Below are positions 7,535 to 43,923 of a DNA stretch of 64,000 nucleotides, piece after piece. The notes under the pieces were generated by a model. The model searched no databases and was not told the DNA's origin. It worked only from the letters and a program-made list of their open reading frames with translations. The translations under genes were made by a program, and so were the position numbers. The DNA comes from Heptranchias perlo (lineage: Eukaryota). Every line of letters begins with the position of its first letter. Position 1 is the first letter of the stretch. Location: contig NC_090326.1 in NCBI RefSeq assembly GCF_035084215.1, positions 159,464,001-159,528,000 on the forward strand. Reading direction: 5' to 3'.

Positions 7535-7734
7535 AAGTTATAGTCCAGCAATTTTATTTTAAATTCACAAGCTTTCGGAGACTTCCTCCTTCCTCAGGTA
7601 AATGTTTACCTGAGGAAGGAGGAAGTCTCCGAAAGCTTGTGAATTTAAAATAAAATTGCTGGACTATAACTTGGTGTTGTAAAATAGTTTACAATTGTCA
7701 ACCCCAGTCCATCACCGGCATCTCCACATCATGA
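7535..7734 (+). mobile_element. 200-bp Penelope-derived fold-back insertion with two opposed hammerhead motifs
   Basis: Perfect 68-bp inverted repeat 7535-7602/7605-7672, followed by the PLE tail ending ccggcatctccacatcatg. 13-bp TSD ctccccaaacata at 7522-7534 and 7735-7747. Confidence 0.92.
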
Positions 7735-8584
7735 CTCCCCAAACATAGGCAGGCTTCTGCCCTCCTGGTTCAGCGCCAAGGCTGGCACCACCACGTACCA
7801 CCCACTGTTGCTCCTTTCCTGTTCCCAGGTTGACACAATAGCCTTTCTATGACCTGCTACCCATAACTTGCGAACAATGCCACAAGAGCAGCCAACAGAT
7901 GCACAGAACTTCAGAACACTACATAGGCAGGGACACCTTCTTCCAGGTACTGCTGCACACTCCAGTCTCAATATTGTGAAACTCTTGACAGCCTTACACT
8001 AGCTTATATAAACCCGCCCCCATCCCCAAAAAAAACCCTTTGCATGCAAATGAAACACATGAAGCTTAAAAAGAAAACAGTGAATGTCATAATTCTGAAA
8101 TAAAACAATCCTGGACAGCAGGTGATGAGCATCTTAAAGAAAAGGGTTTGTCAACTGATCGACCTGTAGGGAGTTTCTAGCATTTTCTGTTTTAGTACAA
8201 TGAAATGCACAGTATTCTACAAAAGTAAAATAAAATTGCCAAGATGTGTAGCTTATTGTACCCAAGTTAAACATTTAAAGACTGAAATGCCTCTAGCGAC
8301 AGAAAGCCAAATGTTTCATGGGACACTGCAGACATTTCACCTGAATTACCCTCGATGACTGCACTTCATATGCACTCATCCAGGCCACTAGATTGCACTG
8401 GCTCAGTGGACTGTTCCCACTAAGCTAAGCATGCCTCCCACAAAGCAACAGGAACAGTCAACGATGGTAGCCACAGAGATGCCAGTAGGCCAGAACATCC
8501 CACCCTACTCGCTAAAGCAAACCAGAACAAAGAATATAATTTCTTCCACCTCCCTCCCCCTCCACCCGAGGAACATTGTAATTC

Positions 8585-9140
8585 TAACATAAAATGCTGG
8601 AAATATACAGCAGTTCTGTCAGCATTTGTAAAGGAAAAAGATAAGTTAGCATTTTGTCAAAACAAACTAAGGGTTCTGATGAAAGGACTTGAGATGGGAT
8701 TGCAAACTCATCTTTTTTCTTTACAGATGGTGACTTTTTTACTTGACACGATTTCTTTTGTTGTTTAAATGGACTGCTCCCATTTTCTCGGACAGCAGGT
8801 GCTGGTATTGGTTCTGCTGTTGCCATTTACATCTCTATTGTTTCTTTACTTGTACCATTATCACCCTCCTTCCCTTGCACCATCAAAGATTTTGTCATTT
8901 AATCACTCCTGCCCTCCATCCTACCTTCCCTTTAGTTCTTTAATCCCCTCCCCTTTCCCTGGCTACATACTTGCTTAAAAACTTAATTCTTTATTTCTTC
9001 CAGTTCTGACGAAAGGACATCAACCTGAAACGTTAACTCTGTTTCTATCTCCACAGATGCTGCCTGACTTACTGAGTATTTCCAGCATTTTCTGTTTTTA
9101 TTTCAGATTTCCAGCATCTGCAGTATTTCGCTTTTGTTTT
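8585..9140. mobile_element. Older second family of Penelope-type 3' ends with hammerhead-like cores and inverted arrangement
   Basis: ctgacga-aagg-acatcaa-cct-gaaacgtt at ~9006-9034 is followed by aactctgtttctatctccacagatgctgcc...ttccagcattttct. A diverged inverted copy, aaaatgctggaaatatacagcag, lies at ~8590. Related pieces occur at ~8090-8195, 44995-45066/47396-47512 and ~62050-62240. Confidence 0.6.
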
Positions 9141-9248
9141 GTGGTTCCTTTGTGCTCAGTGCAAAAACAACCCATTTTTCTTTCTGGCCTGGCAACTCTG
9201 AAAGACCCACTGTTATCCACCTTAGAGCATGCACCTTCATCTACATAC

Positions 9249-9323
9249 CTGTGCAGAGAAAGAGGAAATTCTTACAGGTCTTGGGGCAGACATCTGAAAA
9301 TAATTCAAAGACTATGCGGCCCA
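9249..9323 (-). CDS. NKTR: NKTR-type cyclophilin coding exon (75 nt): (V)[24 protein letters not shown](G)
   Basis: Acceptor tttcag and donor gtatgt; phases fit both neighbouring exons; cyclophilin GRIVFELF...PKT motif. Confidence 0.95.
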
Positions 9324-9908
9324 CTGAAACGAGAAGAAAAACTGAAGATCAACTGACAGGCTCTGAAAAAGAAAAAAGTGTAAACATATGCAGCTCAAAT
9401 TTATCTATGCTCAGCGTCAGCAGCACCACAGGTACCGTGTTATTAAATGACACCGACACCCGAGCAAGCTTCCTGCTTTGCTGAATTAGCATGCTGACAA
9501 CAGCATTTCCTCCAAAGGACACTATTTTCTCAGCTAAGTCTCACTTAAAATCTAATACTTTCTCCCTCCCCTCTCAAATGTCGCTAAAATGATTTAAAAC
9601 GAAAACCTAACATTTAAATTACAAATCTGGATGGGTTAATGCATTAAATGTATAAATTTGGTCTGCACCAACAGAATATTGCTGTACTTAAATATTCAGA
9701 ACTGGGCCATGCTCAGCTCAACAGCAGTGAACTACTGGGTGACGGGCTGAATAGGTGTGGTTAAACAGGAAGCCGCAATACAAAGTAGAGATTAAAAAAA
9801 TCTTCTGGTTGATGCACAAGACGTTCGCTGATCTAAACTCTAAAAATACATTTCAGCGGTAGTTTCGCCACTGCAGTTAAGTCGGCAGCCTCCTGCGGAC
9901 CGAACCAA

Positions 9909-9951
9909 GAGTGTGTGAGAGAGAGAGAGAGAGAGAGACAGAGACAGAGAG
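9909..9951. repeat. (GT)/(GA)n compound microsatellite
   Basis: Read directly from the sequence. Confidence 0.9.
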
Positions 9952-10860
9952 CGTGAATTTCCAGACCATAATATGCCCAGCCAGCCAGCTTCCAGGACAA
10001 GATAAATTGATCCTTTAATATTTTGCTCATTAAAATTTTTAATTGAGTATTCAATGCGATTATTCAGTACAGCTGCACGAAAATTGATTATAGGAGATTA
10101 AAGTGTGCAGAGTCTAACAATCTATAAATCCCGATCTTACCATACGTGAATGTTTTCACAAGGCAGCACTGGTGCTCATATATATTCCCTAAAAAATACT
10201 GCATTAATAACGCTGCTATAAACAGTTACAGATAAACATTTCTCTGTACATATTTCTTGGTGATTGGCTGTAGATTAAATTCTGGTAAACTTGCAGGTAT
10301 CATCACAATTTGATTCTTCAGATGCCTGATGGCTATGCATCAACTGCGTGAGGCATCTTGGATAACAGTAGCCATAATGCCAAAGAACAGGGAGGGAAAA
10401 AGCAAAATCCTCCTCTGAACTGCACAAAAAACAAACACACAAGGGAGCATTCTCAAAGTTGTAATATCATTGGGATTCAGAGGAAGGTTATAAACCCTCC
10501 AGCTTCATTATCAGGATGTCATTTAAATTCAAAGATTCAATCCTCTTCCTGATCATCAATCATTATTCCATAATCATTACTTTCCAGTAAAATGTATTTT
10601 TTTTAAAAAACAGGAAAAAGCACCTTTTTAATTGAAGAATGAACGAATGAACTTGAATTAACGTAGCCTTTCACGTCCTCAGGACATCCTAAAGCACTTC
10701 ACAGTGAATGAATTGCTTTTTGAAGTGTGGCCATTCATAACGTAGGCAAACATGGCAGCCAATTTAGGAAGACTAGAATGTGGGAATTGCTCTAGTTCGC
10801 CTTCTATCATCCTGCTAGCCACATGATACAACAATAATGCAGTTGTTGATTATTAATAAC

Positions 10861-11928
10861 CATGATGTGGAGATGCCGGTGATGGACTGGGGTTGACAAA
10901 TGTAAAGAATCTTACAACACCAGGTTATAGTCCAACAATTTTATTTGAAAATCACAAGCTTTCGGAGATTATCTCCTTCGTCAGGTGAGCGTGGGACTCC
11001 TTGAACGTTTCGCATTTATAGTCAGAGAACAATACCAAGTGATTACAGATAATCTTTCCAACTGCCCATTGTCAAGGCAATCAAAGTGTTCAGAGGTGTT
11101 ACCTACAAGATCACCGAATACACAAACGGCCAGAACACAAGACAGAGAGAGGGGGAGAAACATCCGAAAGGAAGAGAAAGACAGAGAATGACCTGTTGTA
11201 TTAAAAACAGATAACCTTTATTCGCTGGTGGGGTTACGTGTAGCGTGACATGAACCCAAGATCCCGGTTGAGGCCGTCCTCATGGGTGCGGCACTCGGCT
11301 ATCAATTTCTGCTCGACGATTTTGCATTGTCGTGTGTCTCGAAGGCCGCCTTGGAGAACGCTTACCCGAAGGTCGGTGGCTGAATGTCCTTGACTGCTGA
11401 AGTGTTCCCCGACTGGGAGGGAACCCTCCTGTCTGGCGATTGTTGCGCGGTGTCCGTTCATCCGTTGTCGCAGTGTCTGCATGGTCTCGCCAATGTACCA
11501 TGCTCCGGGGCATCCTTTCCTGCAACGTATGAGGTAGACAACGTTGGCCGAGTCACAGGAGTATGAACCATGTACCTGGTGGGTGGTGTTCTCTCGTGTG
11601 ATGGTGGTATCTGTGTCGATGATCTGGCATGTCTTGCAGAGGTTGCCGTGGCAGGGTTGTGTGGTGTCGTGGATGCTGTTCTCCTGAAAGCTGGGTAATT
11701 TGCTGCGAACGATCCTGTAGGTAACACCTCTCTGTCTGAACACTTTGATTGCCTTGACAACGGGCAGTTGGAAAGATTATCTGTAATCACTAGGTATTGT
11801 TCTCTGACTATAAATGCGAAACGTTCAAGGAGTCCCACGCTCACCTGACGAAGGAGATAATCTCCGAAAGCTTGTGATTTTCAAATAAAATTGTTGGACT
11901 ATAACCTGGTGTTGTAAGATTCTTTACA
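10861..11928 (-). mobile_element. Penelope-like element, 5'-truncated (GIY-YIG C-terminus + 3'UTR), with an inverted copy of its 3' region (~10901-11112 vs ~11711-11928)
   Basis: ORF 11234..11743 is highly similar to ORF 53870..54421. Flanking TSD attattaat(a/g)ac at 10849-10860 and 11929-11940. Hammerhead motifs at 10952-10988 (-) and 11841-11877 (+). Confidence 0.93.
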
Positions 11929-12179
11929 ATTATTAATGACAATCAATCTCTATCAATTAGTCTACAGCAGACCCAGATATTAGGTGAGGAAAATCCCTAG
12001 TGGTAGAAAGCTTCGGGAACCATAGGTCCAAAGTCACATATTCCTCCCTAGCATGCTACACTTAACATATGTCTTATCTCATGTTGCTCATATACTGTAT
12101 TTTCTGAAAGGAATATATCTAATTTGCATTTGAATGAATCAACACTATCTGCTTCCACCATCTCCAGAGGGAGCCTGTT

Positions 12180-26170: not shown

Positions 26171-28047
26171 TAAATATATATATATATCTCAAGATAAACA
26201 ATTCTATGTCATGAATTGATAGAAAACTACTTCCGGGCCATAGCTGCATCAGTTCTGATGAGGTTAATGCATTTCCTTCCAGTTTCTTTTAAAAGCTCAG
26301 GTGAGCAACAAAACAAAATCGGAAGCTGACAAACCTGGGTAACGAATTGATGATCCGACAATTTTAATTGTGAGCTTCAGGCCACTGTTCGGAAACACTT
26401 AAGACCTGAATCAGAAAACAGGATAAAATCTCAGGAACAATTTAAATCACCCGCTTCAAGTACGAGTCGCATTTGACAGTCGAGATTTGCACTCGACGTT
26501 CAAAGTAAATCTCCTGCTATTCATACAAGTGCAAATGCAATAGCAAGACACACATATCATAAATAGATGAAAAAAATTCCTTTCCCTAACCTCCCACCCC
26601 TCCACGCAACTATCAGTGTCATGCAACATTCCCCAACAGCGAGGATGAGTGTGCAGGCTGCTCCCCAGCTTTGGATAACCTTTGCTCAGTCCAACCCCTA
26701 ATAGCATTCCAGCAATAATTCACCCACCCACCAATTTCCCATCCTGATTGATAGTGTCAATCGAGATCTTATTGGGAATTTTAAGCAAGAATCTTTCTGC
26801 AAAGCTGAATACAATTTGGCAGATTGCCATTGAAACAGTGCTTTTACTGAGGTTGTAAAATTCTACAGATGAGTTGCAGCCCCTTGCTAAATTCAAAACA
26901 AGACTGCATCGGCATATTCTAGAGGATCTTCAACCCCCTTTCATATATGCAGGATCTGAAGTTAATGTACTTCTAACGACTGCTAAATGAATTATTTTCA
27001 TTTGAACGAAGGAACCACCTTAGTTTTAAATTATGGCTCATTTGAACTGAATTTGCTATTATTTAAACTGAATTTCAATGAACTCAATAATAAATTAGCA
27101 AACCGACATATGTCACAGGTTGTGTCTTGTTCAGGTCTGTATGAATGTGCAGGATTCCATCCAGGCCACAACAGGAAGGAGCTACATAATGAAACTGCCT
27201 CAAATTTGGTGTACACACTACTGATTGTTACTAATATCACACAGCGGGATTTCAAACACATTAATTTGTCTGCATGAAATTCTTCTGTCTGCTGTTTTAA
27301 CAAAGGCATTGACACAGGTTAAAAGAATGGGCAAAAGAATTTCATGTGAACATGTTACATATCACACAGCATGATGTCAACCCATATTTAATCTGGGAGA
27401 AATGACCTTTCCCTAATTGTGTGAACTCAGTTATTTAACAATGTAACTGCACTAGTCTACTTGTATGAGGATGATTTAAAAGAATATTCGTTCTCAGGAT
27501 GTGAGCGATGCTGGCAAGGCTGCATTTATTGCCCATCACTAGCAGTCCTGCTTTCCAGTAAAACAAAAGTTTGACCTACTTTGTGCTTAGCAACAGCTTC
27601 AAGCTCTTCAAATCAGGTTCAGCGCAATTAAGATGACATCAGTAAGATATGTGAGCAATCAAATTACGTCCCGCCACCAGTGGCACTTCAGAGTGATCAA
27701 AAGTCCGATGTTGCCTGATTGCCCACACCTGCCAAGATATCACTGACCATTTCTGCAGGCCCTGGCACATCTTCCTGACAATGACTGTGAAAAGTTGGCT
27801 CCGAACTTCTCTTCCTCCTGCAATTCTCAGGTTCCTCAAACTGATTCTTGGTATCATCCAATCAGTACGTCCTGATTTGTCTTCTCTTTTACTCTTCCCA
27901 ACCGTGATGGATTCCTGGACTGTCGGCCTTGGCCCTTCTCAATAAACTGTTACGGCCACGTGGACGCTGCAGCAATCCACACCATATCCAGACACAGTGA
28001 CCCTTGTGTTTACCAGGTATGAAAAGAAGCCTCGCCAAAACACCACA

Positions 28048-28051
<4 letters not shown>

Positions 28052-28089
<38 letters not shown>
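28052..28089. repeat. (AC)n microsatellite
   Basis: Read directly from the sequence. Confidence 0.97.
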
Positions 28090-28092
<3 letters not shown>

Positions 28093-28912
28093 CTGCATTT
28101 AATGTTGGCCCTCAAGGAGCCTATTATCATCCAGAACATGAACCTTTGACTTAACTGGACACAAATGTCACTGTTTCCCAATTTATAACCTTTTTATAGT
28201 CCCAGTTGCCATTAGCAACAAAGCTGGATTGATAAAATGTGAATCATTAGTTCCTCCTGCCTAAAACTCATACGTTTGCATTAGCCTTTCTATTTTTAAC
28301 ATAAGTAAGTTTCACTAACCTTTGGGGGAGGGGCATGAAAATATTTATAATGCTGATGGATTTTTTTTAAAAGCCTCGTATTCATTATTCTCCACATGCC
28401 AACTGAATTTGTCCACGCTGAAGTATATTTGATTTATTTTCTATGTCAATAGATGTAAAATTTAAAAGCTTTTTTTTATAAACTACTATAAATCTCTGCA
28501 GAGTGAATGTCACCTTCAAAACAAGTTATGAGGAAATATCAACCACATGAACATCTTTGTTTCTTTTCTAAGTAGTGGGTGTTGATAATACTGATGATGG
28601 GGAGCAGTTACTGAGCCTGGCAGCATGAGGGAGCTGAAAATACACACTGATTGCTGTAGCACTCTCGGTTTAATGCCTCGAGTGTCTCTAATGATATTGA
28701 TTCAGCTCCCTCATTCTGTCTCAAATTAGCTCCCTCAATTAGCCCATTATTCAGCAGTCACAATATTTTTTTTTAAAGGGAGCAAGGAGGTGATTAAAGT
28801 TGCCCGTAATTCTTTGTAACCGTTTAGTTTTTAGAAACAGAGGCCATAACAGTGACAGGGGAACTCAAAAGATAGGACTAAAAGGGAAGGAAAGTCTCTT
28901 TTGGATCAAACT

Positions 28913-29360
28913 GTTTCCCCATTTTATATATAACAAAATTATATACATATGACATTTTAAAATGTTTGTAAAAAATGCACATTTTATTACCCCCAAGAAA
29001 GACTTTGAAATCAAGGCTGCCTCCCTGCCAGAACCCTCCGATGTGGTAACCGATGGGAAGTGCCCCAGAACGACAATGTAGGAAACGTGAAGGGGAAGGA
29101 GGGGGCACGCTCAAGCTGCAGAACTCTGAAACCAGGATGCCGGCTAGGGTTGCAAATTCCAAGCCTGTAGCAAGGTTTCTTTGAAGTCCTACAGCTGTGG
29201 ATTCACTCCTGCAGCAGCTCTGGGATGTTGCCCCGGTGAGCCTAGCAGGAAGGGAGGACATCACTTGAGGGTCTCTTTAAGGATGAGGAAATACACATTT
29301 TTACAAAAAGTTCAAACATGTCGTGAGTTTATAACTTTTCTATATATAAAATGAGGGAAT
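28913..29360. mobile_element. Decayed palindromic MITE-like element
   Basis: Imperfect terminal inverted repeats of ~90 bp (ttccccattttatatataac... / ...ctatatataaaatgagggaa) with weaker complementarity continuing inward. Confidence 0.6.
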
Positions 29361-31175
29361 AGAATTACATAGAATGTACAGCACTGAATCAGGCCACTCG
29401 ACTCAACAGGTCCATGCCGGTGTTTATGCTCCCCACAAGCCTCCTCCCACCCTTCTTTATCTAACCCTATCAACGTAGTCCTTTCTATTTCATGTGTTTA
29501 TCTAGCTTCCCCTTAAATGCAGCAATGCTATTTGCCTCAACTACTGCTTGTGGTAGCGAGTTCCATATTCTCACCACTCTCTATGAGTAAAGAAGTTTCT
29601 CCTAAATTCCCTATTGGATTTATTAGTGACTACCTTATATTTATGGCCCCTAGTTCTAGTCTCCCCCACATGTGGAAACATCTTCTCTAACCTATCAAAC
29701 CCTTTCATAATCTTAAAGGCCTCGATCAGGTCAGCCCTCAGTCTTCTCTTTTCTAGAGAGTACAGCCCCAGTCTGGTCAATCTTTCCTGATAGATATAAT
29801 CTCTCAGTTCTGGTATCATCCTAGTAAATCTTTCTTGCACCTTCTCCAGTGTCTCTATATCCTTTTTATAATATGGAGACCAGAACTGTTCGCAGTACTC
29901 CTAAGTGTGGTATAACCAAGGTTCTATACAAGTTTAACATAATTTTCCAGCTTTTCAATTTTATCCCTCTAGAAATGAACCCCAGTGCTTTGTTTGCTTT
30001 TTTTTTAAATGGCCTTATTAACCTGTGTCGCTACTTTTATTGATTTGTGTATCTGTGTACCCTCCAGGTCCCTCTGCACCTCTACCAATTTAAACTCTTA
30101 TTTTCCAAGAAGTATGTGGCCCCCATATTTTTCCTACCAAAATGTACCACCTCACACATATCCATGTTGAAATTCATTTGCCAATTACACACCCATTCTG
30201 CAAGTTTGTTAATGTCTTCCTGTATTTCATCGCAATCCTCCTCAGTATTAACTATACCCCCCAATTTGGTGTAGTCTGCAAATTTTCGATTGCCGAGTCC
30301 AAATCGTTTATATCAATGCTGAACAACAGTGGTCCCAGCACTGATCCCTGTGGAACACCACTTCTCACCTTTTGCCAGTCCGAATAACTACCTTTAACTC
30401 CTGCTCTCTGCTTTGTAGACAGCTTACTATCCATTCTGCCACTTGTCCCCTGACTCCACATATTCTGACCTTAGTCATGAGTCTACAATGCGGTATCTTA
30501 TCGAAGGCCTTTTGAAAATCCAAATATATTACATCTACTGCATTCCCTTGTCTACCCTTTCTGTTACTACTTCAAAGAATTCAGTAAGGTTGGTCAAGCA
30601 TGACTTTCCCTTTTGAAATCCGTGCTGACTATTCTTTATTATATTTTCAGTTTCTAGATGTGTTTCTCTTACATCTTTGAGTAAAGATGCCATTATCTTT
30701 CCTTCCACCGACGTTAAGCTAATTAGTCTATAGTTCCCTGGACTTGTACTATCTTCTCTTTTTAAATATAGGAATCACATTAACTGTCTGCCAGTCCTCT
30801 GGCACTATTCCCTTTTCTAATTAATTTTTATATATATGTAACAGTGCCTCTGCTATCTCTTCCCTAACTTATTTTAATATGCACGAATGCAATCCATCCA
30901 GACCAGGGGTTTTAGTCTCTCTAAGTTTGATTAGTTCATCTATTATCTCCCCCCCACTCTATCTTAAAATGTCTTTATATCTTTTTTGATCATGTTAGTC
31001 TCCCAGGTAAATACTGAGGCAAAGTAATTATTTAATATTTCTGGCATTTTGCTGTCATTACCTGTGAATTTATCATCTGTATCCCTTAATGGCCCTATCC
31101 CTATCCTGATTTTTCTTTTGTTATTTATGTGTCTGTAGAATACTTTACTATTTCTTTTTATATTCCTTGATAATT
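29360..31175 (-). mobile_element. Degraded CR1 ORF2 and 3'UTR
   Basis: ORFs 30964..31257, 30252..30461, 30082..30264 and 29571..29840 carry successive CR1 RT motifs. Confidence 0.9.
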
Positions 31176-33067
31176 TAATGTAATACTTTGAACAAAAATA
31201 CTCACCTAGAATTTCTTTCTCATTTAACCTCAAAATGGTACTGTTACTTTTGAACATACAAAATTATAAATCACAATGGAACAAACAGTAAGTACGATTC
31301 ACTTAACACAGTATGAAACTTACAATAGATTTACTGGTTAGGAGGAGGAAAGTATAATATATAGTACTTGTGAGAAATTTTTTTCTTACACAAGACCTCT
31401 AGCATCAGACTATAAATAACCAAACTTTAGAAATACCAGCACTGAGTACCCTAATGACATAGGAGGTAAAAAGGCATTGCCCAGTGCAATACTCAGCTAT
31501 ATCAATCACAAGGTCCTAGGTTCGACCTTCAGCATGAGTTAGCTGATCTAAGCCAGGGCACTACAACAGTTGTGATCTGGAATGCATTGCCTGAAAGGCT
31601 GGTGGAAGCTGATTCAATAGTAACTTTCAAAAAGGAACTGGATATATACTTCGAAAAGTTAAAATTTGGAGGGCTATGGGGAAACAGCGGGAGAGTGGGA
31701 CTAATTGGGTAGCTCTTTCAAAGAGCCTGCACAGGCATGACGGGCTGAATGGCCTCCATCTGTGCTGTATGATTCTATGAACTAGCTCCATCGATAGGAA
31801 AGTGGCATTGTGGCCGGGGGCGGGGGCGGGGGGGGGAAATCCATGAGGGTACGGTTTCTGCTCATTGCCCATTGACTCCTACTGGAAAGGATGTGCAAGT
31901 GTTGGATGAAGACAGATCAGGCTTGCCTTACATAACCCCTCCCTCATGAAAAAATAGACTGTTGACACTGTTTAGGCTCACTCATGATGAATGGACATTT
32001 GGTTACGGTGCCGCAGAGCTTTCTAGCAAGCACAGAGCTGTAACCCAGCCTTCGGGACGGAGTGGGAGAAAAGGGTAGAAAGGTGGAAAAATAATGCATT
32101 AATAGAACCATTCGGTACCTCACATTATTATCCAGTGGCAGCCCTCCACATTCCAACACATTCCCACAAATACACATGGAGACTGGTACCTATAAATGCA
32201 GGTATGCAATAAAGCAGCTCTGCAAATTTCATTCTGTAGCTTTTTTACGAGAACATTTGGAGTAAGGATTCATTTTTTTGAAACAAGCAAACTTTTGACT
32301 CCAGCTTCATCCAATGATATATGTTCATAATCAACACTGCAAGATTTAGCATCACAATTTGTGTCAAGGTTATATTTCTGATCTTCCTATACCTCGGGAG
32401 AGCAGCTGGGTAATGAAGTCATTGCATGAAAAAGTGATTCAGGGCTGCAAAAATCATTCTTGCACCTTCAGTCACACAACTGAAACTAAAACAACTGGGT
32501 TTTGGGTAGCTGGTGTTTTGGTAGGAAGATCAGTTAAGATTAGCCTTTTCCTTGCAAATCAGTTACTTCTGTGTTCATCTGAAGTACCGCTGCCAAGTTT
32601 GTGAAGGTGCTGAGAGCTGACAGCTCCTGAACTCAGGAGGAGGAGGAGGAGGAGTCATATGATGAACACTGGGATCCACATCTTAATAATGGAATGTTAA
32701 TGGTAACGGTACTGGCTTACTAACAATAGAGTGTAAGTGGTTAAATTATTGTACATCAGACTGTCGAAGTTAACGTGAATCATTTAACAAAAGCTAAACA
32801 TGGCTTTGATCTATTCACTGGTCCTTGGGGCGGGCTTGAACAAAACACCCTCAGGCAGCATAAACACAGTTTTCAATTCATGCGCTTAGCTTCTGAGTAA
32901 CAACATTTCATATTTATAAAGCAGTTTAAAACACAGTCGAATAATAAAAAAATACAATACAAAGACCGTTCACAGATCTGTTCTAAAAAAACAATACACC
33001 AAAAATGTTATATGTAATCAAGATAAAAGTACTTGCTGGGAATAAAAGGGGAACAAAAGAGCCTTAC

Positions 33068-33125
33068 CTGGAGTCCTGTTTATTTCCACATCAAAGTAGC
33101 ATTGCGGGCGGTTCTTCACCCCCAT
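33068..33125 (-). CDS. NKTR: NKTR-type cyclophilin, first coding exon (exon 2-equivalent), MGVKNRPQCYFDVEINRTP; whole exon 33068-33148 includes 23 nt of 5'UTR
   Basis: Minus strand reads tctag|gtgtgcacagagtgtataccgtgATGGGGGTGAAG...ACTCCAG|gtaagg. There are 58 coding nt ending in phase 1, and the peptide matches the NKTR N-terminus (MGAQDRPQCHFDIEINREP). The symbol is given on family resemblance; orthology is not proven. Confidence 0.9.
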
Positions 33126-34917
33126 CACGGTATACACTCTGTGCACACCTAGATCAGAACAAAGAGGAGCAGGTTGGCAAGATCGTTGTACGAATCCCGG
33201 CTGAAACTCAAAGCTGCTTTGCTATAGAAAGAGGCCTCCTCTTGAAGTCTTGCAAGCATCTATTCTCTCTCCATCCCCCCCACCCCCACCTTTCTGCTAA
33301 GCCAATTCTGATGCAAGCAAAGGCAGCACATCCCTCCTTCCTTATGCTCATGCCTCGCAGCACGTGAATGAACTGCTCAGAGGAAAGGGGAGGGGGGTGG
33401 GGGTGAAGATACAACTCTGCGAGAGCGTGAGAGATATAAATTTATATATGCAAACTCATCTATTTTGAATAGCGTCCCTACCAGCCCATTAAACAGGCAC
33501 TTGAAGACAACCACTGTTCTGTAATTAAGCAGGCTGTTGTACTGAACTGGTGAAGGAGCATTAATTGAAGGAACTAAACAAGAAGGCAGCACAACTGTAT
33601 GAAATGAACTCATAAATATACACAACCATTGCATATGCAGTGTTATGGAAAATGAAAAGGACTTTTGTAATATAAAAAAAATCACAGCTCTTGAATCTTG
33701 ACTGCCAACACTTTACGCAACCGGCAAAAAAAGTGAAATTAAGACTTGTAAAATGAAACTGAACCCAAAAGAAGAGTTAGAAATAGAAAGCTTAGATTCA
33801 TTCTGACTGCATTTTTAAAAAAATTTAAGCGTTGAAACAAACTACCAAAAGGACTGCTCTGCTCCCTCTGGGTATTATACACGCACATTTTCACAAATTT
33901 ATTACCGTAACTCTGGTTGCCAATAACAGTAAAAGGGTCTTCCCAGGAGAGTTGAACATTCTTTCTGCTAACATACTGAGCTGCACTGAACTACCAAGTT
34001 CACAAGTTATTTTTACACAGGTGCCTGGGACTATGGGAGAACCAGCTCGAGCAAAGACTCTCTAATCCACAAGCACCACATCCTACTTTTTGTACCGACA
34101 GTGGGGAAGGTTACCACTGGATCTCGTGCTGCAAAATTGTTTTTAAAAAATGTTTGCAAAGAATGGATTTAGAATTTTGCCACAGGTAGTGCACAGAGGG
34201 ACCACCCACGACTGGGCATCACCACCCACGTTGCAGGATTGACAGAAAGTGGTGCTCGTTTTCTAAATCTCTGACCTGCATCCTTGGGAGTGCAGGGAAA
34301 GTTGGGTCCCTGTTGGAGGCGTGCTGCTTGTATGGTACAGTTGCTGTTGGTGCCAGGAGTGATGTGCTTCTGCCACCGATAGCACGCTACCAATGTAAAA
34401 ATACCAACAGTGTCGCAGTATCAACAGAAAATCTACCAAAGCCACATGTCCTCAACTCTGATGACTCCAGACTCAAGTGGAGTCTTAAAGGCATGTTTAC
34501 ACGACCGAACTGTGTCCGGTGGAAATGTTTCTGCACTGGTGAAGCTGCTGGGAATCTGGGTGTAATCATAGCACCAGTGAAGCTATGAGTTGTTTAGAAA
34601 TCTTGTTTGCGATTTGGAAGATTCTGACCCTGCACGTTCCCCGCTATCATTCTGACCTGTAGGATGGGGCTTAGCTCTGCGCCCACCCACACTCGGGAGA
34701 CACATTGGACGGTAGTGTAGAGCAGCAGCGAAGACAGCCACTGAGGTTTGCTTACTGTGGTACTCTCCTTCTGGGGATCCAATGGAAAGCTCCCCTGTGA
34801 GAGGGCGGGCTCAATGTCACCACAGGCACGAACTTACCTTGCTTATATTACAAGGCTGTCTCCAGAGGCAATGCTGCGATATAAATGCAGCATTATTATG
34901 TAAAAAGGCCTTGTCCA

Positions 34918-37270
34918 ATCATAGTATCATAGTAGGTACAGCACAGGAAGAAGCCATTTGGCCCATCGTGCCTGTGCTGGCTCTATCCAATTAGTCCCAT
35001 TCCCATCTCTTTCCCCATTGCCCTGTAATTTTTTTCCCTTCAACTATTTATCTAATTCCCTTTTGAAAGTTACTATTTAATCTGCTTCCACCGCCCTTTC
35101 AGGCAGTGCATTCCAGATCATTACAACTTGTTGTGTTAAAAAATGTTTCCTCATGTCACCTCAAGCCCTTTTGATGATCACCTTAAATCTGTGCCCTTTG
35201 GTTACTCACCTTTCTGCCACTGTAAACAGTTTCTCCTTATTTACTCTATTAAAACCATTCATGATCTTGAACACCTATATCAAATCTCCCTTTAACTGTC
35301 TCTGTTCAAACAGCAACTTGCATTTATATAGCACCTTTAACGCAGTAAAGCGTCCCAAAGTGCTTCACAGAAGAGTTATCAAACAAAATTTGGCACCGAG
35401 CCACATGAGATATTAGGACAGGTGACCAAAAGCTTGGTCAAACAGGTGGGTTTTAAGGAGCGTCTTAAAGGAGGAGAGAGAGGTAGAGAGGCGGAGAGGT
35501 TTAGGGAAGGAATTCCAGAGCTTAGGGCCGAAGCAGCTGAAGGCACGACCTCCAACGGTGGAGCGATTAAAATCGGGGACGCGCAAGAATTGCAGGAGCG
35601 CAGAGATCTCGGAGGGTTGTAGGGCTGGAGGAGTTTACAAAGATAGAGAGGGGCGAGGGATTTGAAATCAAGGATGAGAATTTTAAAATCGAGGCGTTCC
35701 CGGACCAGGAGCCAGTGTAGGTTAGCGAGCACAGGGGCGATGGGTGAACGGGATTTAGTGCAATTTAGGATATTGGCAGCACAGTTTTGGATGAGCTCAA
35801 GTTTATGGAGGGTGGAAGATGGAAATCTGGCCAGGAGAGCATTGAAAGAGTCAAGCCTAGAGGTAACAAAGCCATGGATGAGGGTTTTAGCAGATAAGCT
35901 GAGGCAGGGGCGGAGACAGGAGACATTATGGAGGTGGAAGTAGGCAGTCTTGGTGACGAAGCGGCTATATGGTCGGAAGTTCAATTCAGAGTTAAATAGG
36001 ACGCCAAGGTTGCGAGCAGTCTGGTTCAGCCTCAGAAAGTGGCCAGGGAGAGGGATGGAGTCGGTGGCTATGGAACGGAGTTTGTGGCGGGGACCGAAGA
36101 CAGTGGCTTTGGTCTTCCCAATATTTAATTGAAGGAAATTTCTGCTCATCCAGCATTGGATGTCAGACAAGCAGCGTGACAAATCAGCGGCAGTGGAGGG
36201 ATCCAGGGAGGTGATGGTGAGGTAGAGCTGAATATCGTCAGCGTACATGTGCAACCTGATGTCGTGTTTTCGGTTGATGTCGCCGAGGAACAGCATGTAG
36301 ATGAGAAATAGGAGGGAGCCAAGGATAGATCCTTGGGGGACTCCAGATGAGAAGCCATTGCAGGTGATTCTCTGGCTACAACTGGATAGATAAGAATGGA
36401 ACTAGGTAAGCGCAGTCCCACCCAGCTGCACGATGGAGGAGAGGCGTTGGAGGAGGATGGTGTGGTCGCGAAGGATGAGGAGGGATAGTTTACCATGGTC
36501 ACAGTCACATAAGATGTCATTTGTGACTTTGATAAGGGCCGTTTCAGTAACAGTGGCAGGGGCTGGAACCTGATTGGAGGGGTTCAAACATGGAGTTGTG
36601 AAAGATGGGTACAGATTTGGGAGGCGACAACACGTTAAAGGACTTCGGAAATGGGGTAGTAGTTTGCAAGGACAGAGGGGTCACGGGTGGGTTTTTTTTG
36701 AGGGGGGTGAAGACGGAGAACAACCCCAGGTTCTCCAGTCTCTGCACATAACTGAAATCCCTCATCCCTGGCAACATTCTAGTAAATCTCTTCTGCATTC
36801 TCTCTAAAGCCTCGACATCCTTCCTAAAGTGTGGTGCCCAGAATTGAACACAATACTCCAGCTGAGGCCTAACCAATGTTTTATAAAGGTTTAGCATTTA
36901 CTTTTGTACTATATGTCTCTGTTTATAAAGCCCAGGATCCCATGTGCTTTTTTAAAACTGCATTCTCGACTTGTCCTGCCACCTTCAAAGATGTATGTGC
37001 ACCCCCAGGTCTCTCTGTTCCTCCATCCCCTTTAAAATTGTACAATTTCATTTATATTGCCTCTCCTCATTCTTCCTACCAAAATAGATCACTTCACACT
37101 TCTCTGCGTTTAATTTCATCTGCCATGTGTCTGCCCATTTCACCTGTCTGCATGTCCTCCTGAAGTCTGTTACTATCCTCCACATTGTTTACATTTCCAA
37201 GTTTCGTATCATCTGCAAACTTTGAAATTACACCCTCTATACCCAAGGCCACATCATTAATATATATCAA
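34918..37270 (-). mobile_element. CR1 3' part split into ~34918-35308 and ~36716-37270 by an L2 insertion
   Basis: ORF 36544..36897 begins with CR1 motifs; the sequence ctctgttc|...|ggagaacaacccc is contiguous in other CR1 copies (e.g. ~40906-40930). Confidence 0.85.
35309..36715 (-). mobile_element. L2-clade LINE, RT and 3' end
   Basis: ORF 35379..36296 has HMYADDIQLY, WMSRNFLQLNIGKTK, NLGVLF, FVTSRLD and LHWL..R..FKIL. The end ggtgctatataaatgcaagttgctg is L2-type. Confidence 0.9.
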
Positions 37271-37814
37271 AAAGATGTAATGTAATTTGAATTATTTCGT
37301 AACTTAAATCTTATCTTTTTAAAAGAGGGTGGTGAAGAAGAAAAAAAAAGATATAGTAAAAAATAAACAGACACACATTGCAGGAGCGCAGCATACAACT
37401 GCAATCTGCGGTGTAAACGGTCTGACGCTCAGAGAAGTGATGGCATTGTAGACTCAAGAAAATGTGGGTTCATGAATCTGCCGCTGGATTAAAGTCAGCC
37501 AATTCTCAAAACAAACGGAGGGAGCCAGTCTTCCAGTTCTGCATTCAATCGCAATCAGGCCTGCACATCGCACAAAAGAGCCCCACAGATCAAGAGCTGA
37601 ATGAAACGTGTGAAATGGGGAGAGTGGCAAACATAGTTTGCTCTCCCAAGACTAGAACAATTTTATGACACAAGTATGAACCAAGCAAGATGACCTTTCC
37701 TCTCTCATTTGCCCCCATCTACCACGCACTTTTAATTTAACTGCCTCCTACCTTTACTGAACAACCCAGAGTCCATGAGACACATTTAAATCAGGAGCGG
37801 AAGTCACATTTATC

Positions 37815-38218
37815 AGGACACTTTGCATAAACTTAGCTTGTGTTCCCTTGAGTTTAGAATGTTGAGGGGGTGATCTAATCAAGATATTTAAAATTATAAT
37901 AGGATTCAATAGGGCACATACAGAGAAACTTTCCACTGGTGGGGGAATCCAGAACAAGGGGGCATAACCTTAAAATTACAGCTAGGCCATTTAGGAGTGA
38001 AATCAGGAGTCACTTTTTCACAAAACAGTAGTGAAAATCTGGAACTCGCTCCTCCAAAGGATGTGGATGTAGGGTCAGTTAAAATCTTCAGACTGTGATC
38101 CATATATTTTTGTTCGGTAAGGGTATTAAGGAATATGGTTTGAGGTACATTGAGCCATGATCTGATTGAATGGCAGAACAGGCTCAAAAGACTGAATGGC
38201 CTACTCTTGCTCCTATGT
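37815..38218 (+). mobile_element. CR1 3' fragment
   Basis: ttgagggggtgatctaatc and gggcataaccttaaaatt motifs, CR1 3'UTR; a similar copy is at ~51265-51650. Confidence 0.75.
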
Positions 38219-39627
38219 TGCTATAGCAAACAAGCTCTGCTGACAGCCAGGAGAAGTACTGTGGAAGATATCACTATCAGACAGCTGTTACTGCATAATT
38301 GTTCTACTTACAGACCAATGGGGAGCCACCTTTTCATATCGTTGCTTCTACAGCAAAAAAAACTTTCATACGGACTGTGCGTTAAAGAGAAAAAATTCCC
38401 TGTTCAGGTTGTTTTTTTTTTAAAGCAGATCAACAATGTGGCAATTAACTGTGGCTCAGCTGACATGCTCTACAAAGATTCCCTGCCGATGTCCATGGAA
38501 TATTTCAGCTGGCAGCAGCAAGCTAGATACTGAGACATCATCAGCCCAGCCTCTATACGAGTTGGGAATTAGGTGCTGTTCCATCCAGAAAGCATAGGAG
38601 ATAGAACTTAAAAGTGAAATAATTACAGGGTCCCATTTTAATTACACAAATCATGGTGTTGGCTAAATAAAATGTAAATACATGAACAACAACATTAACC
38701 CATTAGCAAGTCGGTTTTATGCTTAAAAAATGTTTTTAATTTGCTAGACGCATACAGACGTACCAAGAGGCGGCAAGTAATTTTGTGCAGAGGTTGCCGC
38801 AGAGCGCCCATGTAAAATACAATGAAATGCGAGTAGTGGTGCTTCACACACAGCACTCCTATCGTCTCAGCCTCCTCCGAGTGGGGGCCATGGAAATTAA
38901 ATACACTGTGGGGGGGCATGGTGCGATAGGATCTAGGATTGTTACTGTAGCAAAATACCAGACGTGCGATCCCTTGATGGAGCAATGAGTACAAATACAT
39001 ACATCTTAGTGGGGCTTTCTTTGCATGCAACTGAGTTTTGCATGCGACAGTCTGCCCACTCAGGTGGACATAAAAGATCCCAAGGCACTATTTTAAAAGA
39101 AATTGGCTGCTGCGTTTCCTACATTTTAACAGTGACTACACTTCAAAAGTACTCCATTGGCTTTAAAGCGCTTTGGAACATCGTGAGATCATGAAAGGCG
39201 CTACAGAAATGCAAGTTCTTTCTTTCTTACCAGCCTAGTTTATCTGGGTAATCGGAAATGATCCAAAATGTTCTCTCCGCCTGTACTCACATCTTGAGGG
39301 GAGTGATTTTTAAAGTTTTTTTTTGCAGTTTCCAAGTATTTTCAGTATGGAGATCAGACTAGTACCAATCAGAATTGAAGTAAAACAGATAACTAGAGAG
39401 AGGATGACACGTACACAATACCCTGCACATAATACGTCCCTCTTCACAGGAGACTGAAAGACACCAAGCGGGAGGTGGGGGAGAAATTACTGGAGCTGAC
39501 CGGATGGACTTTTGGAGAGGCAGGTTTTTAATGAAGTGTGTGAAGGTGATGAGAGGGGTTAGAGAGCAAGGCAGAGGGGTTAGGAAGACAGTCTCAGATT
39601 GCATAAATGAGCGGTTGAAAAATAGAA

Positions 39628-40014
39628 AGTACATTTATGTAGCGCCTTTCATGACCTCAGGGCGTCCCAATGCGCTTTACAGCCACTGATGTACATTTGA
39701 AGTGTAGTCACTGTTGTAACGTAGGAAACATAACAACCAATTTGCGCACAGCAAGCGATGTTGATTGAGGGATAAATGTTGGCCCTGCTCTTCTTCGAAA
39801 TAGTGCCATGGGATCTTTTACATCCACCTGAAGGGGCAGATGGGGCCTCGGTTTAACATTTCATCTGAAACGTGGCACCTCCGACAAGGCAGCGCTCCCT
39901 CAGTACTGCACTGGAGTGTCAGTTTAGATTTTTGTGCTCCAGTCTCTGAAGTGGGACTTGAACCCGCAACCTTCTGACTCAGAGGCGAGAGAGTTACCAC
40001 TGAGCCACGGCTGA
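39628..40014 (-). mobile_element. tRNA-derived Deu-domain SINE (SacSINE1/AmnSINE-like), near full length
   Basis: Minus strand has the A box TGGCTCAGTGG and B box GGTTCAAGTCC, then the Deu-like core gtggatgtaaaagatcccatggcactatttcgaagaagagcaggg and an L2-type tail. Confidence 0.85.
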
Positions 40015-40514
40015 CACTTTGAAGGCAGAGCAGACTGAGGGATATAGAAATCGATCAGAGGGATAGAAGGGACTTGTTATGGAATAGGAAATGAGCAGCC
40101 GAGTTCTTGATGAGTTGGAGCTTATGTAGGGCGGAGCTTGGAAGCCCGGCAAGAAGCATGTTGGAGCAACAAAGTTTTGAGGTGACAACGGCATAGATGA
40201 AGGTTTCAGCAGTAAAAGCAATAACTAGAAAACGCAAAGCAAAATTTGGGAACTGCTTGTCGTACTGAGGGGCAAAGAAACTATGACGGAAAAGTTGAAA
40301 TAGACAAGAAATATACCCTTCCATCAACTTTTTAAATCCCTGTCTTTCAAAACAGGTGAGACCAGCAACTCAGATTCCTCAATGGCTTTCAACATTTCTG
40401 CTTCGCCACAAGGCATTCAGCAGATAATGAATGGCACTGGCAAAAGAAAAAATTCACCACGTAAATCATTTATGAGGCACATCACAAACACCAATACCCT
40501 CATTATAGCAGGAA

Positions 40515-41066
40515 TTAGAATCACAGAAAGGTTATAGCACGGAAGGAGGTCATTCGGCCCATCGAGTCTGCGCCAGCTCTATGCAACAGCTATCCAGCTA
40601 GTCCCGCTCCCCCGCCCTATCCCTGTAGACCTGCAATTTTTTCCTTTCAAGTACTTATCCAGTTCCCTATTGAAGGCCATGATTGAATCTGCCTCCAACA
40701 ACCCCTTGGGCAGTGCATTCCAGATCCTAACCACTCGCTGTGTAAAAAAGTTTTCCTTGTGTCACCTTTGGTTCTTTTGCCAATCACCTTAAATCTATGT
40801 CCTCCGGCTCTTGACCCTTCCACCAATGGGAACAGTTTCTCTCTATCTACTCTGTCTAGGCCCTTCATGATTTTGAATACCTCTATCAAATCTCCTCGCA
40901 ACCATCTCTGTTCCAAGGAGAACAACCCCAGCTTCTCCAGTTTGTCCATGTAACTAAAGCCCCTCATCCCTGGAATCCTTCTAGTAAATCTCTTCTGCAA
41001 CCTCTCTAAGGCCTTCGCATCTTTCCTAAATTGCGGAGCCCAGAACTGGACACAATACTCCAGTTG
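40515..41066 (-). mobile_element. CR1 3' fragment
   Basis: ORF 40647..41000 has QKRFTRRIPGM..LRGDLIEVFKIM. Confidence 0.9.
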
Positions 41067-43713
41067 AAATAGGAAATTTCCCTAAATCCAAACCAATTAT
41101 AGTTCGGAGAGTTTATCGTGGCAAGTTCTACTAAACGTGCACACAAGTAAAGAAAAACCAGCTATGGGAGGAACGAACAAGCCAGTGTCAATTCAGACAC
41201 CTTTTACTGCAATTGAGGAGCAAATGATTTACCACATCAACCCCCAGCTCGACTATGTTTTATATACCTGAACAAGTATTCAGCAGGGATAGGGTTCTAA
41301 TCAAAGAAAGACACTCCAGATGACTGATGTTAGTAAATATATACCATTCCTTGTACACCAAGCATTTCCCTTTAAGGCACTGCTCAAAGTCCCAAACTGG
41401 GTTCAAAAAACACACGGGACATTTGGCTTCCATTTCTCACTGCAAACATGCGGATTTGCAGTGGTGAGTTAACATGGCCAGTGTGCCTGTTTTCATATAT
41501 CTAGCTTGGGATACAGCTTCTTTTAGCACGTTAAAAGTAGCTTTTAAAAATAAAATTTTTTTAAACTTGAAGTATCTTGAATCGTGCATTTCTTTTGTTC
41601 ATTTATTAAAAAAGAGGAAAGCTTTTTAGTAGCAGTCATATCCAAGGTAGAACCTATGGAAATGACTCCTATAAATGAGCCTGTGCAAAGTGAGGGGCAT
41701 GTGTGATTTACTTTTTTTTTAAAAAATACTATTTTTTTTCCCTGTGTTGGTAAAACTGCCTATTTCACCAACAGGAGGCAGAAACTACTGCACCTGGAAT
41801 GTAGCTCTGAGCAAAATCACAGGCTACAAATCCCATTCCTCACCAGCCAGATTTTTGTTTCAAATTTTACATTTCTTCTGCAAACTGAGGGATGTTCATT
41901 ATGATTTAGGCTGCCTGTGAAGCACAGATGTTATCAGTAGAGTGAGAGCAACACAGAAATAAAAGGCAAATCATTAAAAAGTCACTTAAAACTTTCTATT
42001 TTAGCACCTCCCAAATTAATCTCTGCAATTCTTAAAGTAAATTATTTTGGTGAGCATCGATTTAAAAACAAAATCACTGGAGGTCACATGTACATAACAA
42101 AATAAGGAACTTACTCAGCTTAAAATAATTTGACTGATCCCTTTAAAAGGCATCAACGCAACATGTAGTTTTCCAGTGACTGAGGGTTGAGATGGCACTT
42201 GATTATTTAACCAGGCACCATCAACATTGTGCCCTCACAAACATACACATGATTGACTCGGACATCATAGTGGGCTCTTAACATCAATCTTCATCTGCCT
42301 CCCGGTCCTCGGTGGGCTCTGACTTCAATCTTTCTCCTCTTCTCGGGCATCATGGTCATGCTCTGGAGCCAGTGTTCATCCACTTCACACTCCCAGTGCA
42401 ACAGCACAATGAGTGGTTTCAGGGCAAGTCAAGCATTTATAAAAATTGTTCCTCGCAGTTGACCAGTCATTTATCGAGCTGAAGATCCTCCCCCTTGTAT
42501 TTATTTCCCAAAGTGACAACATATTGGGCATTCAGCCAATAACGAATGAGAAGATATGCCTGTATCATGGGGTTCTATGAAGCAAATGCCTGTTGCAGCA
42601 TTTACACCAGATACAACATATAATAGGGGACTGGATGAAACAGTTCCTGTGCAATATTCACAAAACGGTTTTACAAATGTTGCATTACTAGCCTGTTGGA
42701 GCGTTGGTTTCAATTTTACCATGATCTAGTTACTACCACTCCCATGTACTTCAACTCTGGTTAAGCATGTACTTGGCCAAAAGGTTGTCATGCCCTACAA
42801 GTGCTGTTCCACCAAAGTATAATCATTAAATTTTAAGTTTTGTACTGATTTTGAAGCGGGTCCATAGGAGCACAGAATTAAAATCGCAATCTCCTTTACT
42901 CCGCTGTTAATGCAGTGTCAAAATGTACACCATGTGCTGCCAGCTTTAAGCCAGCTGCACATTAAATACATCACTGAGCAAGTTGACTGATTACAAACCA
43001 AACTCTTCTGAACACAGCAGGTAGTGGACGTCAACATCATGGAGTCAAAAACAGAAAGCCATATAATTACATTATCTTCCAGAGAGAGAGAGGGAGAGAG
43101 AACACACTATCCTTGTTAGAAATTGGTAAGAATTATTTATTAACTAAGTTGACAGCTAAATGATTATGATTCTTGTATTTCTGTCTTTTCCATGCTAAGC
43201 TACATGCTGTTGGAACAAGGATTGGAAAAGTTTGACGTTAACTTCCCAGCTCAGGAAGAAAAAAGACAACTCACTTGCTCACAAGGATCTTTTCTCTCCC
43301 AAGCCAAAACTTCCTAGTTTCCAACTTTTCTGTGACTGAGTCAGATCCTGCACGTCCTGTTGCGGCTCCTCCCTATCCTACAACAAATCCATCGCTCATT
43401 CCTTTTTATTTTTAAAGATGACTTCTGCTGGGTAATATTCTACAGTTCCCGGGCAATGAGCTTTGGCAAGTTCAAAAAAATAATAAATACTTTTCTTAAA
43501 AGTTTGTGCTCACCCAATGGTGAATAACTTAAAACATCTTTTTCAGGGTTATGCTTGATTATGTACAACTCATGCTCTGCTTCATGACGGGCAAAGAACA
43601 GTACAAACTCAGCAAAAAAAAATTACGTTCAGTTTACAGCAAACAGGTATGAAATGAATTTGACTTATGCGGAGAACTTGAAATCAGACTTCAATCCCTT
43701 TCATAAATAAAGG

Positions 43714-43923
43714 AAGGAATCTTACAACACCAGGTTATAGTCCAACAATTTTATTTTAAAATCACAAGCTTTCGGAGATTATCTCCTTCGTCAGGTGAGT
43801 GAGTGACGAAGGAGATAATCTCCGAAAGCTTGTGATTTTAAAATAAAATTGTTGGACTATAACCTGGTGTTGTAAGATTCCTTACATTTGTCCACCCCAG
43901 TCCATCACCGGCATCTCCACATC
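43714..43923 (+). mobile_element. ~210-bp Penelope-derived fold-back insertion
   Basis: Perfect 80-bp arms 43714-43793/43804-43883 with a 10-nt loop, then the PLE tail; TSD tcataaataaagga at 43701-43714 and 43922-43935. Confidence 0.92.

What the first reader, a model, noticed from the sequence alone, without database searches (positions are those of the whole stretch)
7535..43923. Recurrent ~200-bp TSD-flanked fold-back insertions built on a Penelope hammerhead motif (7535-7734, 19100-19305, 43714-43923)
Seen: three independent insertions share one design, TSD - inverted arm (68, 85, 80 bp) - turn - same arm - PLE tail - TSD (12-14 bp). In all three the hairpin turns within about 10 nt of the CUGAnGA hammerhead core. 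Each copy has its own stem-II loop (gaagt, gaaag, ataat), and both arms of a copy carry the same variant. The arm lengths differ between copies. Known: PLEs carry minimal hammerheads and often show inverted partial duplications. Inference: either reverse transcription stalls at, or the template is bounded by, the ribozyme and the cDNA self-primes, making each hairpin anew at insertion. The alternative is a non-autonomous palindromic retro-MITE class mobilised by the PLE RT/GIY-YIG. The stereotyped turn point and the density (3 in 64 kb) are the unusual part.
Basis: partly seen in the sequence, partly recalled or inferred. Interest (0 to 1): 0.8.

Follow-up and report, generated by a model that had tools for sequence, protein, structure and literature searches.

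The report
Head-to-head Penelope 5' UTR hairpin insertions
These hairpins are the shortest by-products of a Penelope-type jumping gene: two DNA copies of the front end of its RNA joined back to back, and where they stop seems to mark the RNA's start rather than its ribozyme.

Summary
In detail: arms of 68, 85 and 80 bp, TSDs of 13, 12 and 14 bp. The interpretation needs changing. The genome holds about 20,000 such hairpins, about half of the sampled tailed copies of one Penelope-like family. They are mostly made anew, not a spreading MITE: 97 distinct junctions in 103 copies, with mirror-image junctions in both orientations. Fold-back of one cDNA is disfavoured: the inverted arm is the longer one as often as the tailed arm (46 vs 39), and some hairpins join two subfamilies. 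Arms pass through the whole ribozyme and do not pile up at its cut site. Their modal end is 29-30 nt downstream of a conserved TATA box in two subfamilies with different TATA-to-core spacing, and copies without a hairpin end in the same zone. The inserts are the 5' UTR, since the tail runs straight into the ORF start. Best model: two target-primed cDNAs run off the mRNA 5' end and are end-joined. The start site is inferred, not measured. The inverted-copy-plus-tail layout is published, and this scan noted such hairpins before in other genomes.

The parts
7522..7534 (+). h1 left target-site duplication (13 bp)
7535..7607 (-). h1 inverted arm; complete minimal hammerhead (C3 at 7597); ends 10 nt upstream of C3, which is TATA+30 for this subfamily
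7605..7734 (+). h1 tailed arm: 5' UTR with hammerhead (C3 at 7610), tail, and first bases of the ORF start; 3-nt overlap with the inverted arm
7735..7747 (+). h1 right target-site duplication
10861..11713 (-). longer family member: tailed arm with GIY-YIG end of the ORF and pLTR; 12-bp TSD with one mismatch at 10849-10860/11929-11940
11714..11929 (+). its inverted arm, running past the TATA box (11809) and hammerhead (C3 at 11845), lacking the tail
19088..19099 (+). h2 left target-site duplication (12 bp)
19100..19223 (-). h2 tailed arm (C3 at 19219; ends 4 nt upstream of it)
19221..19305 (+). h2 inverted arm, starts one base inside the core (no C3); last 3 nt overlap the right TSD 19303-19314
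43701..43714 (+). h3 left target-site duplication (14 bp)
43714..43806 (-). h3 inverted arm; complete hammerhead (C3 at 43794); ends 12 nt upstream of C3
43804..43923 (+). h3 tailed arm, starts one base inside the core (no C3); right TSD 43922-43935
52523..54421 (+). 5'-truncated ORF of the parent family: RT (one in-frame stop at about 53699) and GIY-YIG with a CX4CXXC linker
54635..54801 (+). its pLTR end: TATA (54635), inferred start zone (about 54664), hammerhead (C3 at 54681), tail

Best explanation
Each hairpin is a dead-end insertion made anew by the family's RT/GIY-YIG protein. The protein cuts both target strands about 13 nt apart and each 3' end primes reverse transcription near the 5' UTR-ORF junction, one at the distal start site (keeps the tail) and one about 35 nt further in (no tail). 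On a template whose 5' end is the pLTR transcription start, both cDNAs run out after about 90-135 nt, just past the ribozyme, which lies at the front of the RNA. The two cDNA 3' ends are trimmed and joined head to head by short homologies, sometimes with added A's or filler. Shown: anatomy, counts, symmetry, chimeras, TATA spacing, tail-ORF junction. From the literature: two start sites and extension of both strands in a related element. Inferred: that TATA+29/30 is the RNA 5' end, and the joining step.
For: Tail is directly followed by the ATG of an 822+ aa open ORF in full-length copies (860 exact junctions), and 31 of 92 tailed ends match 4 or more nt of the ORF start. The inverted arm's outer end lies 33-37 nt inside the tailed end in 73 of 104 hairpins, matching the 30-40 nt tail between two RT start sites in PMC11167929. 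44 of 92 tail-picked copies end 113-145 nt from the 3' end; 13 of 15 short copies with no inverted arm end at 124-151. A TATA box lies 36-47 nt upstream of C3 in long copies (30 of 40 score 8 of 8). Hand tallies: subfamily with TATA at -46, 16 of 64 arms end at -16/-17 and none at -18 to -23; subfamily with TATA at -40, 8 of 20 short arms end at -10/-11. With classes set by stem II alone, A vs B differ relative to C3 (p=0.006) but not relative to TATA (p=0.62). Tailed arm longer 39, inverted longer 46, equal 19. Mirror junctions GG 24 vs CC 18 and GGTGAG 8 vs CTCACC 5 in the first 100 rows, on several stem-II backgrounds (hand count). Arms differ at 2 or more diagnostic columns in 10 of 124 (1.2 expected) and at 3 or more in 4 (0.06 expected). 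Runs of 5 or more A or T at the junction in 7 of 103, two with both. Zero-loop palindromic junctions, which cannot prime by snap-back, in 3 of the first 50 rows.
Against: No RNA 5' end was measured; only contigs were available. In the TATA -40 subfamily 7 of 20 short arms end at -18 to -20, upstream of the inferred start, at an AGATCT palindrome, and the three-class test relative to TATA is still p=0.039. Many arms end short of the edge, some inside the core. 100 of 124 hairpins have fully concordant arms, which one RNA, one active source, or copying of one cDNA would all give. Two of the 10 discordant hairpins (L161, L181) look like junction or decay effects. A/T runs lie beside an A-rich end, so some may be slippage. 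The promoter of Drosophila Penelope is internal and TATA-less (PMC2377424). Samples come mostly from the first 25 Mb of one contig, and hairpin sets were picked by gap range.
Confidence: 0.62

Rival explanations
1. Mixed snap-back: both strands are primed, but much of one arm is copied from the other cDNA after it folds back at the template end; the second cDNA supplies only the outer part or the tail.
For: High arm concordance (100 of 124; 1.7% within vs 7.6% between copies). Arm lengths are coupled: short-short 47, long-long 7, mixed 1. Locally templated fillers occur at junctions (L080, L164, L135). Self-priming was proposed for rotifer elements (PMC3846280).
Against: Chimeric arms differ at columns close to the junction (L029, L164, L185, L189). 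Two-base and zero-base loops are poor snap-back primers (inference). A-runs and T-runs on both sides of one junction point to two free ends (L207).
Confidence: 0.17
2. One reading: RT stalls at the ribozyme, or the RNA is cut by it, and the single tail-primed cDNA folds back to make the second arm.
For: Turns do cluster within about 20 nt of the core. The stem I/core near-palindrome gives the commonest junction of one class.
Against: This model needs the tailed arm to be at least as long as the inverted arm, but the inverted arm is longer in 46 of 104. Arms pass the cut site and the core. No cut-site pile-up in 50 listed early turns, which fall at A/T-rich palindromes. The predicted stem I spans only 4-6 nt upstream of C3 while the edge is at -17 in one subfamily. 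In a related element, core mutants did not change insertion products.
Confidence: 0.08
3. A non-autonomous palindromic element (retro-MITE) spreads as a unit from a few master hairpins.
For: Some junctions recur: the BLAST-ranked set for h3 shares the same few junctions across many contigs.
Against: That set was selected by a query containing the junction. In sets not picked by junction sequence, 97 of 103 junction cores are distinct. The same junction occurs on different stem-II backgrounds and in both orientations. Subfamily variants appear in both arms together. Hairpins lack the TATA box and the downstream ORF sequence that a related protein needs for binding.
Confidence: 0.06
4. De novo two-ended joining, but the edge reflects something other than the RNA 5' end, such as a bound protein, a splice site or the supply of microhomologies.
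For: An intron end maps to helix I in Drosophila Penelope (PMC4209133). The -18 cluster in the TATA -40 subfamily follows a palindrome.
Against: No AG acceptor at the -17 edge. Copies with no inverted partner show the same zone. Two spacings give the same TATA offset.
Confidence: 0.07

Closest known systems
Canonical EN+ Penelope-like element insertion unit: inverted 5'-truncated copy plus 30-40 bp tail (PMC8557442 passages and section 15; PMC3846280 passages and Discussion)
   Same: Inverted copy head to head, tail at one end only, TSD, hammerhead in the pLTR, palindromes at the junction.
   Different: Here the unit is reduced to two 5' UTRs, occurs about 20,000 times, and has a sharp subfamily-specific 5' edge. 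The data favour two joined cDNAs over the self-priming on an antisense template proposed in PMC3846280.
Anole Poseidon element in vitro (PMC11167929, parts 1-2 of 4 read)
   Same: Both strands cut and extended, two internal RT start sites defining the tail, initiation near the pLTR-ORF junction, uncleaved RNA used as template.
   Different: That work leaves the later steps open and, in the parts read, does not treat inverted junctions or 5' end points. Here the ATG follows the tail, and the linker is CX4CXXC (Neptune type per PMC8557442).
Minimal type I hammerheads of metazoan PLEs (PMC4209133, parts 1-2 of 4 read)
   Same: Core, extra base after A9, G10.1-C11.1 pair, palindromic 15.2-16.2, short helix I; paired motifs on opposite strands 100-700 bp apart were noted in Schistosoma.
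   Different: The two motifs here are about 40-70 nt apart and often one is broken; no activity was tested.
L1 twin priming (recalled, not read)
   Same: Both target nicks prime cDNA; ends are joined by microhomology, giving an inversion inside a TSD.
   Different: In L1 the two cDNAs cover different parts of the RNA; here both cover the same stretch.
Minus-strand strong-stop DNA of LTR retroelements (recalled, not read)
   Same: Priming near the RNA 5' end gives a short run-off cDNA.
   Different: Primed by target DNA, not tRNA; no strand transfer was shown, and arm-length coupling argues against independent jumps.
Non-LTR retrozymes (bioRxiv 10.64898/2026.07.22.740005, part 1 of 5 and passages)
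   Same: Short hammerhead-bearing sequences derived from PLE pLTRs.
   Different: Retrozymes are head-to-tail tandem repeats; these are single head-to-head pairs.

Membership tests
EN+ Penelope-like element | RT domain with DKG motif | tested here: met
   Pfam RVT_1 42.9 bits, above cut-off 29.6; DKG
EN+ Penelope-like element | C-terminal GIY-YIG endonuclease | tested here: inconclusive
   Pfam GIY-YIG E=6e-4 but 20.5 bits, below cut-off 22.6; position and motif fit
EN+ Penelope-like element | 30-40 bp tail at one end of the unit | tested here: met
   33-37 nt offset in 73 of 104
EN+ Penelope-like element | Adjacent inverted 5'-truncated copy and TSD | tested here: met
Neptune clade | CX2-5CXXC linker between RT and EN | tested here: met
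   CX4CXXC; criterion from PMC8557442
Neptune clade | Phylogenetic placement of RT | not tested
   no tree with named references was built
Minimal type I hammerhead | Core, extra base, G10.1-C11.1, GAAA, palindromic 15.2-16.2, helices I and II | tested here: met
   39 long copies: CUGANGA in 33, GAAAGCUU in 38, four pairs each of helix I and II kept in 37-39; fold z-scores only -1.1 to -1.4; no Rfam hammerhead hit
Minimal type I hammerhead | Self-cleavage | not testable with these tools
   needs a bench assay
MITE | Inverted repeats at both termini | tested here: not met
   tail extends about 35 nt beyond the paired arm
MITE | Uniform copies from few masters | tested here: not met
   97 distinct junction cores in 103
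Non-LTR retrozyme | Head-to-tail tandem units each with a hammerhead | tested here: not met
   single head-to-head pairs

The most novel reading that the evidence does not exclude
Penelope-like elements have a strong-stop step. Both RTs of a dimer start near the 5' end of the mRNA, and the abortive run-off products are the family's commonest insertion. The hairpin junctions would then be a fossil record, thousands of copies deep, of each subfamily's transcription start and of two-template priming, and would explain the inverted repeats of these elements without an antisense template. Long copies would need a different template class (tandem read-through or circular RNA), chosen for both strands together.
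Probability: 0.45. Interest if true: 0.72.

Novelty: new variant of a known kind. Interest (0 to 1): 0.5.

Why it matters
How Penelope-like elements form their inverted repeats is stated as open in PMC8557442, and PMC11167929 leaves the steps after priming unvalidated. About 20,000 junctions in one genome make three things testable: one cDNA or two, one RNA or two, and whether the ribozyme or the RNA start sets the 5' end. The data here favour two cDNAs and the RNA start. It also warns annotators against calling such hairpins MITEs or miRNA precursors (sub-threshold miRNA hits).

Tried and rejected
Assembly artefact: rejected on distinct TSDs, arm mismatches and copy number; not checked in raw reads. 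RNA evidence: no RNA holder listed with raw reads; laying four contig sets gave no start sites and no usable empty-site evidence. Rfam: only sub-threshold miRNA and tRNA hits, no hammerhead. No solved structure matched the RT. The BLAST-ranked set first suggested a master junction; dropped as selection by the query and excluded from all counts except the chimera test. Arbitrary 10-kb stretches gave too few copies. Cleavage-bounded template: no pile-up. Splice acceptor at the edge: no AG. Independent strand transfer as the source of long copies: not favoured, because arm lengths are coupled. Literature searches found no paper on these hairpins or on a start-site edge; Repbase, Dfam and subscription papers (Arkhipova 2006; Evgen'ev and Arkhipova 2005) were not available. 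Three text supplements of PMC11167929 held none of five terms; its supplementary figures and the bioRxiv supplements were not seen and may bear on novelty.
Full report
Observation. The three insertions are present as described, with arms of 68, 85 and 80 bp (0, 3 and 0 mismatches) and perfect TSDs of 13, 12 and 14 bp. Each junction has a 3-nt overlap between the arms. The window also has two longer relatives. One encodes an RT (Pfam RVT_1, above cut-off) and a GIY-YIG domain (E=6e-4, below cut-off) with a CX4CXXC linker, which PMC8557442 gives as a Neptune/Nematis trait. The host is an unnamed 3.25-Gb genome; that it is a cartilaginous fish is my guess from recall.

Scale. The 29-nt tail has 43,266 exact matches. 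Inverted pairs of the ribozyme 3' motif number 9,919 at gaps of 25-55 nt, 6,660 at 56-86 and 1,515 at 87-148; pairs that turn earlier number 2,813, with a different anchor. That is 320, 215, 24 and 55 per nt of gap. Three hairpins in 64 kb is above the mean of 0.33 but expected in about 230 windows. From the first 100 listed tail matches I recovered 92 distinct copies; the other 8 were collapsed on identical 3' flanks or not recovered, and one duplicate pair remains. Of the 92, 47 have two short arms (three of these with wide gaps), 16 are short with no arm assigned, 7 are long-long, 1 long-short, and 21 long with no arm seen within 1.5 kb.

What the insert is. In full-length copies the tail is followed at once by the ATG of an ORF open for at least 822 aa; 860 such junctions match exactly, and 26 of 30 fetched continue over 1 kb into the ORF. 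Tailed ends match 0-14 nt of the ORF start. The inverted arm starts 33-37 nt inside the tailed end in 73 of 104 hairpins. PMC11167929 (parts 1-2 of 4 read) shows that an anole element cuts and extends both strands, starts RT at two adjacent internal sites that define the tail, needs ORF sequence downstream, and uses uncleaved RNA. So the short inserts are copies of the 5' UTR (inference from these calls).

Where the arms end. The per-nt rate of 5' ends is 0.026 at 126-145 nt from the 3' end, 0.009 at 113-125, 0.004-0.005 in the two flanking bins and 0.0005-0.002 elsewhere (BLAST ends overshoot by a few nt). Thirteen of 15 short copies with no inverted arm end at 124-151, so the edge does not need a hairpin. 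The predicted cut site is about 91 nt from the end; the 50 listed early turns fall at A/T-rich palindromes, not there. Long copies keep a TATA box 36-47 nt upstream of C3 although the spacer diverges (30 of 40 score 8 of 8). By hand, 64 distinct arms of the -46 subfamily gave 16 ends at -16/-17, 26 between -6 and -15, none at -18 to -23, one at -24 and 21 long. Forty-nine arms of the -40 subfamily (4 duplicate rows dropped) gave 8 ends at -10/-11, 7 at -18 to -20, 5 elsewhere and 29 long. Both modes equal TATA+29/30. With classes set by stem II only, median longest arms were 5, 10 and 13.5 nt upstream of C3; classes A and B differ relative to C3 (p=0.006) and not relative to TATA (p=0.62), but the three-class test relative to TATA stays at p=0.039. 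I infer a transcription start at that edge. It is not measured: only contigs were available. Drosophila Penelope has a TATA-less promoter (PMC2377424, passages), while a rotifer pLTR has TATA and Inr motifs (PMC3846280, passages).

How the arms are joined. Fold-back of the tail-primed cDNA requires the tailed arm to reach at least as far as the inverted arm. Observed: tailed longer 39, inverted longer 46, equal 19 of 104 (p=0.52). In the first 100 rows, mirror junctions occur as GG 24 vs CC 18 and GGTGAG 8 vs CTCACC 5, each on several stem-II backgrounds (hand count). Junction cores are distinct in 97 of 103. Arms agree at all 13 diagnostic columns in 100 of 124, differ at one in 14, at two or more in 10 (1.2 expected from background mismatch) and at three or more in 4 (0.06 expected); two of the ten look artefactual, and this test included the BLAST-picked set. 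Seven of 103 junctions carry A or T runs of 5 or more, two of them both, and several carry templated filler. These fit two DNA ends joined by microhomology; a polymerase-theta-like process is my inference from recall. Against: the high concordance and the coupling of arm lengths are also what partial snap-back copying would give, so that rival keeps 0.17.

Role of the ribozyme. The motif meets the minimal hammerhead description of PMC4209133 (parts 1-2 of 4; counts), though Rfam does not call it and the fold is weak. Its stem I and core also form a near-palindrome that supplies many junctions. I found no sign that it stops RT or cuts the template of the short inserts.

Comparison and novelty. 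The layout of inverted copy, tail and TSD is published (PMC8557442, passages and section 15; PMC3846280, passages and Discussion), and the latter explains junction palindromes by self-priming on an antisense template. Retrozymes are tandem and differ (bioRxiv 10.64898/2026.07.22.740005, part 1 and passages). Seven searches found no account of a start-site edge or two-template junctions, but Repbase, Dfam and key subscription papers were out of reach. Two earlier notes of this scan describe such hairpins in other genomes as ordinary; none exists for this genome. Verdict: real; not a new element class; a new variant of a known kind whose value is mechanistic. Interest 0.5; best model 0.62.

Noticed in passing
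G000:C2:21273031-21276294 (listing): Nine tail-ORF junctions at a 404-bp period: a tandem array of a short PLE piece, possibly retrozyme-like.
   Followed up: no
L268-L294: Near-full-length copies with no upstream TATA: by eye, 9 of 12 begin 41-73 nt upstream of the ATG, downstream of the predicted ribozyme cut site, unlike the short inserts. A hint that long and short copies use different templates.
   Followed up: partly
L045, L107: Junctions with 40-70 nt of non-element filler between the arms.
   Followed up: no
G000:C1:188733827-188740024 and C1:4461032-4467245: Tandem full-length copies at a period of about 3.08 kb.
   Followed up: no
window 45061-47374 and 50549-51034: LINE-like RT ORF of 510 aa and a second 3' piece 97-99% identical to it; many other LINE-like 3' ends in the window. 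Family name CR1 is recalled, not tested.
   Followed up: no
window 13712-13784: Weak tRNA-like Rfam hit (30.1 bits, E=0.03), probably a SINE head.
   Followed up: no
window about 15400-15600: The plus-strand translation resembles, from recall, the antisense reading of a histone H2A sequence; not tested.
   Followed up: no
runs X17-X19: Contigs of three other coded organisms hold related PLE sequence, so the family is not confined to this genome; hairpins there were not examined.
   Followed up: no
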